DNA of 26,360 nucleotides from a virus (IMGVR_UViG_2534682078_000020); one strand, 5' to 3'; positions 12,424 through 15,857 are shown, numbered from the stretch's first letter. Translations and numbers: made by a program. Notes: generated by a model from the sequence alone, not told the origin.

Positions 12424-12849
12424 TCAATGTACTGCCACAGCATTTCCTGCCGGGCCACCACGGTTCATCTGATTGAAACCGGCGATTGCCACTGCGACAA
12501 AATCATCAGCGTCTCTCACCAGTCGCTCCCGCGTCTCCACCAGCTCCCGAAAATAAGCTGAACTGTGGCTGCGCATTCTGGCCACCAGCAAAGGTGGCAT
12601 TGCCTTTTCGATCGCTGGTAACAACGCCTGAATTTTTTCAACTGCATCAGGGGTGTCTTTCTCTACCCAGCGGAAAATTTTCTGGGTATTGCGAGCCAGG
12701 GCTTCCGGATGGCTGTCGTCATACAGTTCAGGAAACGTCATACCCAACTCAAAATAAGCCTGGGTTATTCCAGCTGCTGGAACTTTTTCGCCATCAGGAC
12801 GCGCCCAGGCATTCATCGCCATGCGGATGTGTTCATGCTTGATTTTCAT
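12424..12849 (-). CDS. YdaT-like protein (CII-position regulator of Rac-type immunity regions)
   Basis: 141 aa starting MKIKHEHI..., which I recall as the YdaT N-terminus; sits directly downstream of the Cro-like gene. Confidence 0.55.
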   Translation of the reverse strand: MKIKHEHIRMAMNAWARPDGEKVPAAGITQAYFELGMTFPELYDDSHPEALARNTQKIFRWVEKDTPDAVEKIQALLPAIEKAMPPLLVARMRSHSSAYFRELVETRERLVRDADDFVAVAIAGFNQMNRGGPAGNAVAVH

Positions 12850-13114
12850 GAATCAAGCTCCTAGTAAGTGGTTGTGTTAACGTTTTGGTATCTTCCAGCT
12901 CGGGCCAAATATTCATCCAATCAAAAGGCCTTAGTTGCTGACGTGTAACTTCACCATTACTGGCTCGCTCAATAAGGACACATAACGATGCCCCTAACAT
13001 TTGACCTTTACTCAATGCCTTTCTTAGATAACCGATGCTAGTACCACACTCACATGCAAACATACGCTGTTCATCTGACGAAAGAGAATTGAGAAATATT
13101 CTTAATTCTTCCAT
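12833..13114 (-). CDS. Cro-like HTH regulator (YdaS-like)
   Basis: 93 aa; HTH region and ...IERASNGEVTRQQLRPFDW resemble YdaS-type Cro analogues; divergent from the repressor gene. Confidence 0.6.
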   Translation of the reverse strand: MEELRIFLNSLSSDEQRMFACECGTSIGYLRKALSKGQMLGASLCVLIERASNGEVTRQQLRPFDWMNIWPELEDTKTLTQPLTRSLIHENQA

Positions 13115-13140: not shown

Positions 13141-13190
13141 AATACCCACAGGTAAACAAAAGTCAATACCCTTGGGTTGTTTACCTTGCG
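13141..13190. promoter_or_regulatory. Immunity-region operator/promoter region between Cro-like and repressor genes
   Basis: Inverted repeat AGGTAAACAA (13150-13159) / TTGTTTACCT (13177-13186); degenerate copy of the ATACCC..GGGT operator motif (CAATACCCTTGGGTT) plus an AATACCCA half-site. Confidence 0.4.
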
Positions 13191-13213: not shown

Positions 13214-13632
13214 ATGGACAAATATGAATTTAGACGACAACAACTCATCAAAATTCGTGATGAGAAATGCGATGGTAAAGCGGTTAACGTGGCCAGAAAG
13301 ATCGGTCGCGAGCCTTCTTATGTATCAAGAATGTTGTACCCAGAGGGGAAAAAGGAAAAAAACGGATCGCTGATGATATGGTGGAGATTATAGAAGAGTC
13401 CTTTGGGTTACCCCGGGGATGGATGGATGGTATCGTTTCATCATCAACGAACACAGCCTCCAATTATGAAACAAGGGTTCTAACGCCACGACAACGTATT
13501 TTTTTAGATCTCTTAGACGAACTGCCAGAAAGTGAAGCGGATAACTTATTAAAAACTCTTGAAGAGAAAAAACAGTATTACAATATGATCTACGAAGAAA
13601 TCCGTAAAAAGAAAGCACAAAACGCATCATAA
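13214..13632 (+). CDS. CI-like prophage repressor, split into two frames at an A7 run (13356-13362) as assembled
   Basis: ORFs 13172..13393 and 13378..13632 fuse if the A7 run is A8; N-terminal HTH (KAVNVARKIGREPSYVSRML); leaderless-type ATG at 13214. Confidence 0.55.
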
Positions 13633-13675
13633 CTCACCAAACAACCAGTCACCAGTTAAGACACATCAAAAAATT

Positions 13676-13710
13676 ACCCATGGGTATTTACTTTTTAAAT
13701 ACCCATGGGT
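13676..13710. promoter_or_regulatory. Two palindromic operator sites (T/A)TACCCATGGGTAT, 25 bp centre-to-centre, upstream of the left operon
   Basis: ACCCATGGGT at 13676-13685 and 13701-13710, the second a perfect 14-bp palindrome ATACCCATGGGTAT; TTTTTAAAT between them could be a -10 element. Confidence 0.6.
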
Positions 13711-13897
13711 ATCCTTCCTTTCATACCAACCCACCCCGTCCCACAGAACGCAGGGCAATACTTCGAGTTACCAGGCAGTGGTCAGGGGGTAAGTAGCCAG
13801 CCCGAGGCGTAAGAACATGACGGCAGGGTTCAACTTTAATAACTATGCAGCAGGTTTTTGTTCCGCTACCCCGGCGTTAAGGGGAAATGAGGTCAGC

Positions 13898-14050
13898 ATG
13901 GATACTATCGATCTTGGCAACAGCGAATCTCTGGTATGCGGCGTGTTTCCCAACCAGGACGGTACGTTTACCGCGATGACGTATACCAAAAGTAAAACGT
14001 TTAAAACCGAAGCTGGCGCGCATCGCTGGTTAGCAAGAAACTCCGACTGA
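13898..14050 (+). CDS. Small left-operon protein (YdfA-like, ~50 aa)
   Basis: ATG at 13898 preceded by GAGG; position matches the first small gene after the repressor in dicB-type operons. Confidence 0.45.
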   Translation: MDTIDLGNSESLVCGVFPNQDGTFTAMTYTKSKTFKTEAGAHRWLARNSD

Positions 14051-14061
14051 TGAGGTTGACG

Positions 14062-14700
14062 ATGGAATTTAAAGATTTACCTCCTTCAATCCAGGAGATT
14101 GCAGCACACACACTTCGTCATCGTCTGAACGAACTTGAATTGGAATCGGTAACGAAAAAAGACACTGATAATATGGCTCGTAATGTGCGCGATGCGTTTA
14201 CCGGATTGTATTTCTGTGCGTCTATAAATAAACACGACTCAGAGAGTGTGGCAAATAAAATTGCAGAAACGACAGCGCAAAACATCAATACGAAACCAAC
14301 GGAAGAAGAAATTGATCAGTTTGCTCATGATGCTGGTTTAAAAAACAAGAAAGAAAAATCGCCATATGCGGGGAACATGTTTGTTTATGACAATCTCATC
14401 AGAATTCGTGGCGAAATTCCGGCGGAATACCTGGCAAGAGTCCATCAGGCATTGCTTAAAAATTTGGAAACAGAATTATTTGATGGCAACACTAACGGTT
14501 TCTTCATGGTATCAGGCCTTGATAAAGACTGGGATGCAGAAAAACGCTGGAATGTTGCTACATGGTTATTCAGTAACAGAGCCGCTGCACTGGAAGCTTC
14601 GGCATGTATTTGCGGCCTGTTCTTAACAGACCACAAATATAATCTGGATGTGTACAGTTATATTTACGCTGAACACGGTCCACTCTGGATTGACTGGTAA
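14062..14700 (+). CDS. Hypothetical protein (212 aa), cargo gene downstream of repressor
   Basis: Long ORF with GAGG before the ATG at 14062; no family recognised. Confidence 0.55.
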   Translation: MEFKDLPPSIQEIAAHTLRHRLNELELESVTKKDTDNMARNVRDAFTGLYFCASINKHDSESVANKIAETTAQNINTKPTEEEIDQFAHDAGLKNKKEKSPYAGNMFVYDNLIRIRGEIPAEYLARVHQALLKNLETELFDGNTNGFFMVSGLDKDWDAEKRWNVATWLFSNRAAALEASACICGLFLTDHKYNLDVYSYIYAEHGPLWIDW

Positions 14701-14910
14701 TTATAAGGAAACACCAGCAGGGCCGCGGCGACCAACAGAACGATTAAAATCAATAATGCCATTATAAAGGACATTATTTAATTTATCGTCGAATGCTGAT
14801 TCTGTGAGCCTCAACTCTGAATGAGTTTTTAATAACCCTGATTGCCTGAGTTGATTTACCAGGCATTCAATCTGTTTTTCAATAAGCGGATTTCTTTTTT
14901 TGTTTGGCAT
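14701..14910 (-). CDS. Hypothetical small protein (69 aa), convergent with the 212-aa gene
   Basis: ATG at 14910 preceded by GGAGGA at ideal spacing; stop abuts the stop of the + strand gene. Confidence 0.45.
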   Translation of the reverse strand: MPNKKRNPLIEKQIECLVNQLRQSGLLKTHSELRLTESAFDDKLNNVLYNGIIDFNRSVGRRGPAGVSL

Positions 14911-15247
14911 TTTATCCTCCATTGAGGTTCTGGGTTAAAAATGGAGACCAACACGCTGTCACGTGTGGTCGTGCGCCGGACACGGATAAGAATCCGGTAC
15001 TGACAGTTTACTGAAAGGATATTTCCCTGAAAAGTCAGGGCATAACGCGAAAGCGTACGGCGAAGCTCTTTCCCTTAGAAGGCTTGTCGTTAGATTTCTT
15101 CGAACGTGCGCTTCCGGTTGTGGCACTCCGCGAAATGGCGCGGCGGTAAGTATGGCGGGGTTATTCCTTCCCCGTTGAGGACACCGGGTTGTCAGGTTGA
15201 CCATACGCTTAAGTGACAACCCCGCTGCAACGCCCTCTGTTATCAAT

Positions 15248-15300
15248 TTTCTGGTGACGTTTGGCGGTATCAGTTTTACTCCGTGGCTGCTCTGCCGCCC
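15248..15300 (+). ncRNA. dicF: DicF small RNA
   Basis: TTTCTGGTGACGTTTGGCGGTATCAGTTTTACTCCGTGGCTGCTCTGCCGCCC followed by TTTTT; matches my recollection of the 53-nt DicF sequence, and lies ~180 nt upstream of dicB as in Qin. Confidence 0.75.
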
Positions 15301-15480: not shown

Positions 15481-15669
15481 ATGGAAACGTTATTACCAAA
15501 CGTTAATACGTCTGAAGGTTGTTTTGAAATTGGTGTCACTATCAGTAACCCTGTATTTACTGAAGATGCCATTAACAAGAGAAAACACGAACGGGAGCTA
15601 TTAAATAAAATATGCATTCTTTCAATGCTGGCCCGTTTACGTCCGATACAAAAAGGATGCTGGCAATGA
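15481..15669 (+). CDS. dicB: Cell-division inhibitor DicB
   Basis: 62-aa ORF METLLPNVNTSEGCFEIGVTISNPVFTEDAINKRKHERELLNKICILSMLARLRPIQKGCWQ, near-identical to recalled DicB. Confidence 0.8.
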   Translation: METLLPNVNTSEGCFEIGVTISNPVFTEDAINKRKHERELLNKICILSMLARLRPIQKGCWQ

Positions 15670-15857
15670 ATACAGCATTTGCACTTGTTCTGACAGTTTT
15701 TCTTGTTTCCGGAGAGCCAGTTGATATTGCAGTCAGTGTTCACAGGACAATGCAGGAGTGTGTAACTGCAGCAACCGAACAGAAAATTCCCGGTAACTGT
15801 TACCCGGTCGATAAAGTTATTCACCAGGATAATAACGAAATCCCGGCAGGTCTTTAA
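15666..15857 (+). CDS. ydfD: YdfD-like small membrane (lysis-type) protein, 63 aa
   Basis: ATG overlaps the dicB stop (ATGA); N-terminal hydrophobic helix MNTAFALVLTVFLVSG; same size and position as ydfD downstream of dicB in Qin. Confidence 0.6.
   Translation: MNTAFALVLTVFLVSGEPVDIAVSVHRTMQECVTAATEQKIPGNCYPVDKVIHQDNNEIPAGL

What the first reader, a model, noticed from the sequence alone, without database searches (positions are those of the whole stretch)
14062..14910. Unknown 212-aa gene and a convergent 69-aa gene directly downstream of the repressor: candidate exclusion/defence cargo
Seen in sequence: both ORFs have good Shine-Dalgarno sequences, and their stop codons abut (14700/14701) in convergent orientation. 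Established knowledge: the slot just after the repressor is where lambdoid phages carry superinfection-exclusion cargo (rexAB, sieB). Neither protein matches a family I recognise.
Basis: inference. Interest (0 to 1): 0.4.

Follow-up and report, generated by a model that had tools for sequence, protein, structure and literature searches.

The report
Convergent two-gene prophage cargo cassette
Two uncharacterised genes that face each other tail-to-tail sit in a swap-prone slot of the early operon of a cryptic E. coli prophage; they are real, are inherited as a unit, and look like a lysogen-versus-lytic antagonist pair (possibly phage exclusion plus self-immunity), but no function has been demonstrated.

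Summary
The two ORFs are real: 14062-14700 (+, 212 aa) and 14701-14910 (-, 69 aa). Both have good Shine-Dalgarno sequences, their stops abut, both are annotated in RefSeq, and both are under purifying selection (dN/dS about 0.2). They are not directly after the repressor. Operator palindromes and a DUF1391/ydfA gene lie between, so the 212-aa gene sits inside a Qin-type dicBF early operon, in the slot that holds ydfB-ydfC in K-12. The 69-aa gene is nested antisense in that operon. It has a predicted promoter of its own and a conserved three-hairpin leader that sequesters its ribosome-binding site. The pair is a unit: 744 versus 751 places in complete E. coli genomes (about 11% of genomes). It also occurs in Salmonella next to three different immunity-region types, and stays paired down to about 30% identity. 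There is no hit in Pfam, NCBIfam, PADLOC or PDB, and no diagnostic fold. My best reading (about 0.3) is a 'noncontiguous operon' antagonist pair like Tai/Ati or Tha/Ith: the small basic protein is made in the lysogen, and the acidic early protein neutralises it on induction. A defence function is possible but untested. Interest is moderate.

The parts
13675..13711 (.). Two perfect 12-bp palindromes, TACCCATGGGTA at 13675-13686 and 13700-13711. These are operator-like sites (OL-like) overlapping a putative early promoter upstream of ydfA.
   Evidence: all four matches with 2 or fewer mismatches in the 26-kb window lie in the immunity region (13143, 13167, 13675, 13700). One search reports the same inverted repeat. 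The promoter itself is read by eye and is an inference. In K-12 the promoter upstream of ydfA is repressed by DicA (PMC5069750).
13898..14050 (+). ydfA-like DUF1391 gene, the first gene of the dicBF-type early operon. Its stop overlaps an ATG 12 bases upstream of the start of the 212-aa gene.
   Evidence: Pfam PF07151, E = 6.5e-28. RefSeq annotates a DUF1391 family protein. The DNA is homologous to K-12 ydfA.
14062..14700 (+). 212-aa acidic soluble protein (PHROG 2151). It has an N-terminal helical module (about residues 1-75, mosaic alleles, shared with other lambdoid early-left proteins), a charged linker, and a family-specific C-terminal alpha/beta domain (about residues 96-212).
   Evidence: AF2 model of the C-domain: pLDDT 77, pTM 0.72, topology bb-a-bb-a-b. 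dN/dS 0.16-0.23. pI 5.2, net charge -10, no transmembrane segment.
14701..14910 (-). 69-aa basic soluble protein (PHROG 4274), convergent with the 212-aa gene, stops abutting. Conserved motifs are SGLLK and a C-terminal R-(R/G)-x-PAG-x-x-L.
   Evidence: dN/dS 0.23-0.27. pI 9.7. Found next to the large gene in 87 of 93 loci; the other six are three truncated loci and three internal deletions of the small ORF. 744 versus 751 places in complete E. coli genomes.
14911..14998 (-). Predicted 5' leader of the 69-aa gene. Hairpin 1 is CCGGAT...GTCCGG (14997-14976). Hairpin 2 spans 14970-14946. Then CTCCAT (14946-14941) pairs with ATGGAG (14922-14917), which overlaps the Shine-Dalgarno GGAGG (14920-14916).
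   Evidence: (the - strand folds with z = -2.9, the + strand with z = -0.45). Hairpin 2 has at least five different stem sequences at the same position in different loci. The same leader precedes unrelated small ORFs elsewhere. No Rfam family matches. No transcript data were available, so this is an inference.
15005..15033 (-). Predicted sigma-70 promoter of the 69-aa gene: -35 TTTTCA (15033-15028), a 17-nt spacer, and -10 TAAACT (15010-15005). The predicted start is near 14998, at the foot of hairpin 1.
   Evidence: A -10-like hexamer lies 5-10 nt upstream of hairpin 1 in unrelated upstream sequences. In five contexts the gap is exactly 7 nt: TAAACT, TGgTAAACT, TGgTATAAC (both copies in L003) and TAAAAT. 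In other contexts I read TGn-extended candidates by eye, such as TGaTATAGA. The window's site matches 8 of 12 consensus positions, below the threshold of the scan. This is consensus-level evidence only.
15249..15300 (+). DicF sRNA, downstream in the same + strand operon. Early transcription has to cross the 69-aa gene antisense to reach it.
   Evidence: Rfam RF00039, 75 bits, E = 4e-15. Aligns with K-12 dicF.
15481..15669 (+). dicB, the cell-division inhibitor and distal gene of the operon, followed by a DUF1482/ydfD-like gene at 15666-15857.
   Evidence: RefSeq annotation of the identical genome. Aligns with K-12.

Best explanation
The two genes form one mobile, tail-to-tail cassette built as a 'noncontiguous operon'. 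The 212-aa gene is an early gene, co-transcribed with ydfA, DicF and dicB from the repressor-controlled promoter. The 69-aa gene is nested antisense in that operon and has its own weak constitutive promoter and a structured leader that masks its ribosome-binding site. In the repressed prophage only the small basic protein can be made. When the repressor is lost, or on infection, transcription of the early operon runs head-on through the small gene; polymerase collisions and sense/antisense pairing reduce its expression while the acidic 212-aa protein accumulates. I propose that the C-terminal domain of the large protein binds and neutralises the small protein. On this view the small protein is the lysogen-state effector (exclusion of incoming phages, or another brake on phage development) and the large protein is the prophage's own early antidote. 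Shown directly: gene order, orientation, abutting stops, the operators, membership of a dicBF-type operon, conservation of the pair, purifying selection, and the conserved leader. Inferred: the promoter, the reciprocal expression, the physical interaction, and which partner is effector and which antidote.
For: The large gene always lies in an early lytic operon: after ydfA in Qin-type prophages, directly after cox in int-C|cox elements of Salmonella, and after a cro-like HTH_35 gene in another Salmonella element. The small gene is always convergent, with stops abutting or overlapping by 11-53 nt. The pair co-diverges: identities of C-domain and small protein run 100/100, 82/86, 83/77, 41/46 and 33/52 %. 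Counts in complete E. coli genomes are nearly 1:1, 751 versus 744 places. Loss is asymmetric: intact large genes persist beside an internally deleted small gene (17 of 120 protein clusters), whereas the genome counts leave no room for many solitary small genes. This fits orphan-antidote logic. The charges are complementary, pI 5.2 against 9.7. A leader that sequesters the ribosome-binding site implies tight translational control of the small protein. Published precedents have the same architecture: Tai/Ati in phi80 (an immune gene antisense inside the Q operon that carries its counter-defence gene; PMC11364771) and Tha/Ith in 80alpha (mutually exclusive expression through antisense transcription; PMC11087260). 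The dicBF operon is polycistronic and repressed by DicA (PMC5069750).
Against: There are no expression data for either gene. The predicted promoter is weak (8 of 12 consensus positions) and fell below the scan threshold. No defence model matches either protein. A 69-aa soluble protein is small for an effector. The same promoter and leader drive unrelated small ORFs that have no large partner (L096, L003b), so antisense small genes in this slot need no protein antidote. Tight linkage could partly reflect the zero intergenic distance. Neither the C-domain nor the small protein is found in any of 50,697 deposited phage genomes, so the carriers may be mostly defective prophages in which self-immunity is irrelevant.
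Confidence: 0.3

Rival explanations
1. The roles are reversed. The 212-aa protein is an early host-directed effector (host takeover, anti-defence or a toxin, as its operon neighbours DicB and DicF act on the host). The 69-aa protein is a constitutively made inhibitor that mops up leaky expression in the lysogen, much like an antitoxin.
For: The large gene sits in an operon whose other products are toxic to the host (PMC5069750). Its N-terminal module recurs in accessory proteins of the early-left operon of Stx phages. It is acidic, as many anti-restriction proteins are. The convergent geometry would also damp leaky sense transcription (architecture as).
Against: The large gene persists intact in lineages that have deleted the small gene. 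An inhibitor would not be expected to have its own ribosome-binding site masked. The C-domain has no conserved catalytic-looking residues across the deep alignment; the invariant positions are mostly hydrophobic or glycine.
Confidence: 0.2
2. The two genes have independent functions. The 69-aa gene is one of several self-contained 'promoter + leader + small ORF' morons that land antisense in this slot, and the 212-aa gene is an unrelated early accessory gene. They stay together only because there is no DNA between them in which recombination could separate them.
For: The identical leader drives unrelated small ORFs, in tandem arrays and without the large gene. The region is highly mosaic: the N-terminal alleles of the large gene reach dS of 1.5.
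Against: In this mosaic setting the pair is still kept together next to three different immunity-region types, in two genera, and down to about 30% identity, with parallel divergence and 744 versus 751 places. Recombination does cut inside the large gene, at the boundary of the N-terminal module, yet the C-domain and the small gene are not seen apart except through deletion.
Confidence: 0.15
3. The pair regulates the lysis-lysogeny decision. The large protein would be a CII-like early regulator and the small protein, or its antisense transcript, a modulator, comparable to cII and the oop RNA in lambda or to cII of phage 186, which follows apl.
Confidence: 0.1
4. The ORFs are decaying or non-functional remnants in a cryptic prophage.
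For: This prophage is defective. Its repressor is frameshifted in this window and the exonuclease and integrase are annotated as truncated pseudogenes. The cassette is absent from deposited phage genomes.
Against: dN/dS is 0.16-0.27 for both genes. The reading frames are intact in hundreds of genomes and in both genera. The Shine-Dalgarno sequences and the leader are conserved.
Confidence: 0.03

Closest known systems
Noncontiguous-operon defence/counter-defence pairs of temperate phages: Tai/Ati of phi80 (PMC11364771) and Tha/Ith of S. aureus phage 80alpha (PMC11087260)
   Same: One gene with its own promoter is nested antisense inside a phage operon, next to a functionally antagonistic partner on the other strand. 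One partner is expressed in the lysogen and the other in the lytic cycle. Expression is reciprocal through antisense transcription. The pair is inherited as a unit.
   Different: No sequence or fold relationship was detectable. Tha is a HEPN RNase; no Pfam domain of any kind was found in either protein here. In phi80 the operon is the late Q operon and in 80alpha it is the cI operon, whereas here it is the early repressor-controlled operon. Here the stops abut exactly and the antisense gene has a structured leader that masks its ribosome-binding site. Function and interaction are untested.
dicBF operon of the cryptic prophage Qin in E. coli K-12 (ydfA-ydfB-ydfC-dicF-dicB-ydfD; PMC5069750)
   Same: The same operon framework is present: immunity region with operators, ydfA, the dicF leader, DicF, dicB and a DUF1482 gene, all collinear and 90-100% identical on either side of the slot.
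   Different: The ydfB-ydfC segment (about 380 bp, both genes on the + strand) is replaced by the 212-aa gene plus the antisense 69-aa gene (about 860 bp). There is no sequence similarity between the two fillings.
Lambda rexAB and sieB, superinfection exclusion genes next to the immunity region
   Same: They are accessory genes near the immunity region of a lambdoid prophage and are not needed for phage growth.
   Different: rexAB is co-transcribed with cI in the lysogen, and RexB and SieB are membrane proteins (established knowledge). Here the large gene lies behind the operators in the early operon, both proteins are soluble, and the Pfam scan, which returned no family for either protein, gave no match to them.
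Type I toxin-antitoxin loci with translationally masked toxin mRNAs (hok/sok; RalR/RalA of prophage Rac)
   Same: A small ORF whose ribosome-binding site is sequestered in a structured 5' leader, overlapping antisense transcription, and a prophage location. RalR shows that small soluble type I toxins exist (my own knowledge).
   Different: The 69-aa protein is hydrophilic and basic, not a membrane peptide. The complementary transcript would be a full-length mRNA encoding a conserved 212-aa protein, not a short sRNA. No Rfam antitoxin family matches here.
BstA/aba, a prophage defence with cognate self-immunity encoded next to the repressor (PMC8585504)
   Same: The concept is the same: a prophage-borne defence gene close to the immunity region that needs a linked self-immunity element.
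   Different: BstA is a single large protein and its immunity element is a DNA site inside the gene. There is no homology (PADLOC).

Membership tests
dicBF-type early operon of Qin/Rac-like lambdoid prophages (genomic setting) | DicF sRNA downstream in the same orientation | tested here: met
   Rfam RF00039 at 15249-15300 (+), 75 bits against a gathering score of 48.
dicBF-type early operon of Qin/Rac-like lambdoid prophages (genomic setting) | ydfA (DUF1391) as the promoter-proximal gene, with dicB and a DUF1482 gene distal | tested here: met
   Pfam PF07151, E = 6.5e-28. RefSeq annotates dicB and DUF1482. Collinear alignment with K-12 Qin.
dicBF-type early operon of Qin/Rac-like lambdoid prophages (genomic setting) | Promoter controlled by the adjacent repressor | tested here: inconclusive
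   Two perfect palindromes at 13675-13711, related to two sites in the cro-repressor intergenic region, fit operators. Binding and repression were not tested. In K-12 this control is published.
Known anti-phage defence systems (PADLOC-DB 2.0) | Sequence match to a protein of a known or candidate system | tested here: not met
   No family matched either protein at E up to 1. Neither protein accession appears in the supplements of two E. coli discovery studies.
RexAB / SieB superinfection exclusion | Homology to RexA, RexB or SieB | tested here: not met
   Neither Pfam nor NCBIfam returned a hit at or above its curated cut-off for either protein.
RexAB / SieB superinfection exclusion | Membrane component | tested here: not met
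   The maximum 19-residue hydropathy is 1.16 for the large protein and 0.22 for the small one, so neither has a transmembrane segment.
RexAB / SieB superinfection exclusion | Expression in the lysogen from the repressor transcription unit or from an own promoter | tested here: inconclusive
   The large gene lies behind the operators and ydfA in the early operon, which argues against it. The small gene has a predicted promoter of its own. No transcript data were available.
Type II toxin-antitoxin module | Two co-directional, co-transcribed genes; recognised toxin or antitoxin domains | tested here: not met
   The genes are convergent. No Pfam or NCBIfam toxin or antitoxin domain was found.
Type I toxin-antitoxin module | Small hydrophobic toxin peptide plus a short antisense RNA | tested here: not met
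   The small protein is hydrophilic and basic. No sRNA antitoxin family matches at this locus. A masked ribosome-binding site is present, but this is a resemblance only.
Noncontiguous-operon immune/counter-immune pair (Tai/Ati, Tha/Ith type) | A gene nested antisense inside a phage operon, adjacent to its partner | tested here: met
   The orientation and abutting stops are shown in the sequence. The operon continues to dicF and dicB beyond the antisense gene.
Noncontiguous-operon immune/counter-immune pair (Tai/Ati, Tha/Ith type) | The antisense gene has its own promoter and expression of the two partners is reciprocal | not testable with these tools
   Only a consensus-level promoter prediction, positionally conserved across unrelated upstream sequences, is available. 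Strand-specific transcript mapping is needed.
Noncontiguous-operon immune/counter-immune pair (Tai/Ati, Tha/Ith type) | One product blocks phage and the other binds and neutralises it | not testable with these tools
   No functional data exist. Indirect support only: co-divergence, the near 1:1 count, and opposite charge.
Noncontiguous-operon immune/counter-immune pair (Tai/Ati, Tha/Ith type) | Sequence homology to Tai, Ati, Tha or Ith | not tested
No HEPN or any other Pfam domain was found.

The most novel reading that the evidence does not exclude
The cassette is a new prophage immune module with built-in self-immunity. A 69-aa soluble effector is translated from a previously undescribed portable promoter-and-leader element (three hairpins, with the ribosome-binding site masked). 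That element serves a whole family of antisense small genes embedded in early operons of enterobacterial prophages. The effector's cognate antidote is the early 212-aa protein. The leader would then be a new cis-regulatory RNA class that couples translation of prophage morons to the lysogenic or lytic state, for example through pairing with the head-on early transcript.
Probability: 0.12. Interest if true: 0.7.

Novelty: new variant of a known kind. Interest (0 to 1): 0.4.

Why it matters
The cassette is in about 11% of complete E. coli genomes and in the major EHEC lineages (O157:H7, O111, O145, O103), yet both proteins are annotated only as hypothetical. If the pair is a lysogen-expressed effector with an early-expressed antidote, it would extend the 'noncontiguous operon' logic for avoiding autoimmunity from late and lysogenic operons to the early operon of lambdoid and P2/186-like prophages. 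It would also add a very small defence or regulatory module that can be tested in the lab. Independently, the shared promoter-leader element offers a way to study how antisense small genes inside the dicBF operon are controlled, and it may affect DicF and DicB output.

Tried and rejected
Sequence families: Pfam, NCBIfam and PADLOC gave nothing for either protein. PHROGs gave only families of unknown function.

Solved structures by sequence profile: four profiles were searched and the best E-value was 0.06, so nothing was found.

Remote homology: the exhaustive profile search of 1.84 billion representatives found 9 proteins, all Escherichia or Salmonella relatives or repeat artefacts.

Other collections and literature: the scan of one genome per species found nothing. 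A literature search for the accession numbers and for 'ybl81' found nothing. The supplements of two defence-discovery papers do not list the proteins. No paper reports an antisense start site upstream of ydfC.

Ideas rejected:
- Antirepressor whose N-terminal allele matches the immunity type. The same protein occurs beside different repressors (L008 versus L010).
- Cysteine protease, suggested by BFVD hits named Prp/YsxB. No Cys or His is invariant across the deep alignment.
- An 18-codon arginine-rich + strand ORF across hairpin 1. It is not conserved in Salmonella loci (sequences, read by eye).
- Hairpin 2 as a - strand terminator. The U-tract is absent in Salmonella loci.

RNAalifold mis-registered hairpin 2 because of indels, so its covariation rests on per-sequence folds.

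Full report
**Setting.** The window is 100% identical, apart from one base, to E. coli chromosomes of the O111/EHEC type such as strain E2863. It covers a cryptic lambdoid prophage integrated beside tRNA-Ser and mtfA. Around the finding the gene order is:
- a YdaT-family gene and a YdaS/Cro-like gene on the - strand (12424-13114);
- a 139-aa repressor on the + strand (13214-13632);
- two perfect palindromes, TACCCATGGGTA (13675-13686 and 13700-13711);
- a DUF1391/ydfA gene (13898-14050);
- the two ORFs of the finding;
- a conserved untranslated stretch, then DicF (15249-15300), dicB (15481-15669) and a DUF1482 gene;
- a truncated exonuclease and an integrase remnant.

This is the dicBF operon architecture described for prophage Qin of K-12. 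There a promoter upstream of ydfA is repressed by DicA, and one polycistronic RNA carries ydfA, ydfB, ydfC, dicF, dicB and ydfD (PMC5069750).

**The observation.** Both ORFs exist as described.
- The large ORF is 14062-14700 (+), 212 aa, with GAGG six bases before the ATG.
- The small ORF is 14701-14910 (-), 69 aa, with GGAGG five bases before the ATG.
- The two TAA stops touch.
- RefSeq annotates both as hypothetical proteins.
- They are genuine genes. Against copies that differ by 14-25% at the DNA level, dN/dS is 0.16-0.23 for the C-terminal half of the large gene and 0.23-0.27 for the small gene.
- Both are recognisable at the protein level in relatives with only 30-50% identity.

The phrase 'directly downstream of the repressor' is not accurate. 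About 430 bp lie between, holding operator-like palindromes and ydfA. The only four matches to the palindrome with 2 or fewer mismatches in the 26-kb window flank the repressor gene on both sides, as OR and OL do in lambdoid phages.

**A replaceable slot.** An alignment with K-12 Qin shows near-identity through ydfA. Unrelated sequence follows, then near-identity again from about 14965 through the dicF leader, DicF and dicB. K-12 fills the gap with ydfB and ydfC, both on the + strand and unrelated in sequence. Other E. coli strains fill it differently. Strain BCE049 has a 129-aa protein that shares only the N-terminal module. Strain M1/5 has a truncated large gene followed by a different antisense 64-aa ORF. 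The cassette is somewhat AT-richer (GC 0.37-0.44) than its flanks (0.47-0.57).

**The proteins.** Neither protein matches Pfam, NCBIfam or PADLOC. Both match only PHROGs of unknown function.

The large protein has three parts:
- Residues 1 to about 75 form a helical module with several mosaic alleles (dS up to 1.5). The module recurs in other PHROGs and in an early-left accessory protein of Stx phages, PA2 gp25.
- A charged linker follows.
- The C-terminal domain (about 96-212) is strongly conserved.

An exhaustive profile search of 1.84 billion representative proteins found only Escherichia and Salmonella relatives. These include a deep Salmonella branch at about 30% identity with a different N-terminus; one subtype of that branch has an inserted XRE-type helix-turn-helix.

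The large protein is acidic (pI 5.2, net charge -10) and the small one basic (pI 9.7). Neither has a transmembrane segment. The small protein has two conserved motifs: SGLLK, and a C-terminal tail of the form R-(R/G)-x-PAG-x-x-L.

**The pair is a unit.**
- In 93 loci that carry the C-domain, 87 have the small gene convergent and abutting, or overlapping by 11-53 nt in Salmonella.
- Three of the exceptions are loci cut by a contig end. The other three carry an internal deletion of the small ORF beside an intact large gene.
- In 5,426 complete E. coli genomes the C-domain occurs at 751 places in 600 genomes and the small gene at 744 places in 597 genomes.
- The pair occurs next to three different immunity-region types: Qin-type DicA/DicC, P2/186-like int-C|cox, and a Mu-repressor-like/HTH_35 type. 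In every case the large gene sits one to three genes into the early lytic operon.
- The two proteins diverge in parallel.
- Large genes that survive without the small gene form a diversified lineage, 17 of 120 protein clusters, ending in ...DWFKG.
- Neither the C-domain nor the small protein is found in any of 50,697 deposited phage genomes. This echoes the published remark that dicBF loci are found in prophages rather than in isolated phages.

**Expression signals of the small gene.** Immediately 5' of the small gene, on the - strand, lies a conserved element of about 90 nt. It consists of:
- hairpin 1, CCGGAT...GTCCGG, which is invariant;
- GCGCAC;
- hairpin 2;
- CTCCAT, a 13-18 nt spacer, then ATGGAGG-ATAAA-ATG.

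CTCCAT is complementary to ATGGAG, which overlaps the Shine-Dalgarno sequence. Individual folds of most variants put the Shine-Dalgarno sequence in this third stem. Hairpin 2 keeps its position but has at least five different stem sequences in different loci, which is covariation. The - strand RNA folds better than shuffled controls (z = -2.9 and -3.75), whereas the + strand does not (z = -0.45).

A -10-like hexamer lies 5-10 nt upstream of hairpin 1 in otherwise unrelated upstream sequences. In five contexts the gap is exactly 7 nt, and some of these sites carry a TGn extension. In the window the predicted promoter is TTTTCA, a 17-nt spacer, then TAAACT (15033-15005). This is consensus-level evidence only. 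No Rfam family matches the element.

The same element precedes unrelated antisense small ORFs. These include a 64-aa ORF in E. coli M1/5 and in Salmonella, where two copies of the element stand in tandem, each with its own ORF. K-12 Qin keeps the predicted promoter and the first two hairpins but has no ORF behind them.

**How it probably works.** The geometry forces transcription of the early operon to cross the small gene antisense before it reaches dicF and dicB. It also forces any transcript of the small gene to run antisense into the large gene, because no intrinsic terminator was found between or within them.

This is the 'noncontiguous operon' layout. In S. aureus phage 80alpha that layout makes the Tha defence protein and its inhibitor Ith mutually exclusive (PMC11087260). 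In phi80 it places the constitutively expressed immune gene taiA antisense inside the Q operon, which carries the counter-defence gene atiA (PMC11364771).

By analogy, I propose that the small basic protein is the lysogen-state product, under tight translational control. The acidic early protein would neutralise it through its C-domain once the prophage, or an infecting relative, starts lytic development. Four observations fit this reading: the near 1:1 count, the parallel divergence, the opposite charges, and the fact that only the large gene is found alone. All steps beyond gene order, orientation and conservation are inferences, and I put this reading at about 0.3.

The rival readings and my estimates are:
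- reversed roles, with the large protein as an early host-directed effector and the small one as its inhibitor (0.2);
- mere physical linkage of two independent accessory genes (0.15);
- a CII-like regulatory role, suggested by the position after cox and by the subtype that carries a helix-turn-helix (0.1);
- decaying, non-functional ORFs (0.03), which the selection analysis largely excludes.

The cargo nature of the genes, the absence of a housekeeping homologue and the presence of expression signals are borne out. The analogy with rexAB and sieB is weak: the transcription unit is different, the proteins are soluble, and there is no homology. A defence function is neither supported nor excluded. 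If one exists, the antisense 69-aa gene is the better candidate for the lysogen-expressed effector.

**Novelty.** Both families are uncharacterised, and no paper in the searchable library names them. The kind of element, prophage accessory cargo arranged as a noncontiguous operon, is known. The new features are its placement in the early operon, the exact tail-to-tail abutment, and the portable leader that masks the ribosome-binding site. I rate interest as moderate (0.4).

Noticed in passing
window 13349-13353 (repressor gene 13214-13632): The repressor gene is frameshifted in this window. A run of five A replaces the six A of strain E2863, which splits the 139-aa protein into 73-aa and 84-aa ORFs. 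It is either a real inactivating mutation, which would derepress the dicBF-type operon including the 212-aa gene, or a homopolymer sequencing error.
   Followed up: partly
window 14911-15033 (- strand); also L003:4872 and 5560, L091:1848 and 2519, L092:2863, L096:3082, L002 about 3060-3140: A portable element made of a promoter, two hairpins and a stem that masks the ribosome-binding site precedes several unrelated antisense small ORFs in the same prophage slot, sometimes in tandem. K-12 Qin has the element without an ORF, where it would give an RNA antisense to ydfC. It is not in Rfam.
   Followed up: partly
window 13143-13178 and 13675-13711: Operator-like sites related to TACCCATGGGTA flank the repressor gene on both sides (an OR-like and an OL-like pair). 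These are the only matches with 2 or fewer mismatches in the window.
   Followed up: partly
L079, L083, L090 (about 5352-5460): One lineage has an internal deletion of about 165 bp that removes most of the 69-aa ORF. The Shine-Dalgarno sequence, the start region and the last codons remain. The large gene stays intact and gains a ...DWFKG end.
   Followed up: yes
window 15950-17983 and 17884-18336: A 677-aa ORF is a fusion of a truncated exonuclease (YdfE/Exo VIII-like) with the C-terminal part of a tyrosine integrase. RefSeq marks both as pseudogenes. The left arm of the prophage is degraded next to tRNA-Ser (18389-18478).
   Followed up: no
window 19470-20999: A second integrase gene lies directly after tRNA-Asn (19470-19545), which suggests another integrated element abutting the prophage.
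   Followed up: no
window 7748-7922 (-) and 25674-25790 (+): A sok antitoxin RNA with its Hok/Gef gene lies inside the prophage. An ALIL pseudoknot, the frameshift signal of IS3-family elements, lies near the right end of the window.
   Followed up: no
window 3203-3454 (-): There is a cluster of three phage-borne tRNA genes: Arg-tct, Arg-tcg and Met-cat.
   Followed up: no
L101 (phage PA2) 3501-3944: The N-terminal helical module of the 212-aa protein recurs in a 147-aa protein (gp25) of Stx-converting phages. That gene lies in the early-left operon after recT, exo, ssb and DUF2303. The module therefore looks like a shared adaptor of early accessory proteins with interchangeable C-termini.
   Followed up: partly
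L098-L100 5001-5861 (protein P0160): A Salmonella-type relative of the large protein carries an XRE-type helix-turn-helix inserted between its N- and C-domains. It is still followed by the convergent small gene, overlapping by 11 nt.
   Followed up: partly
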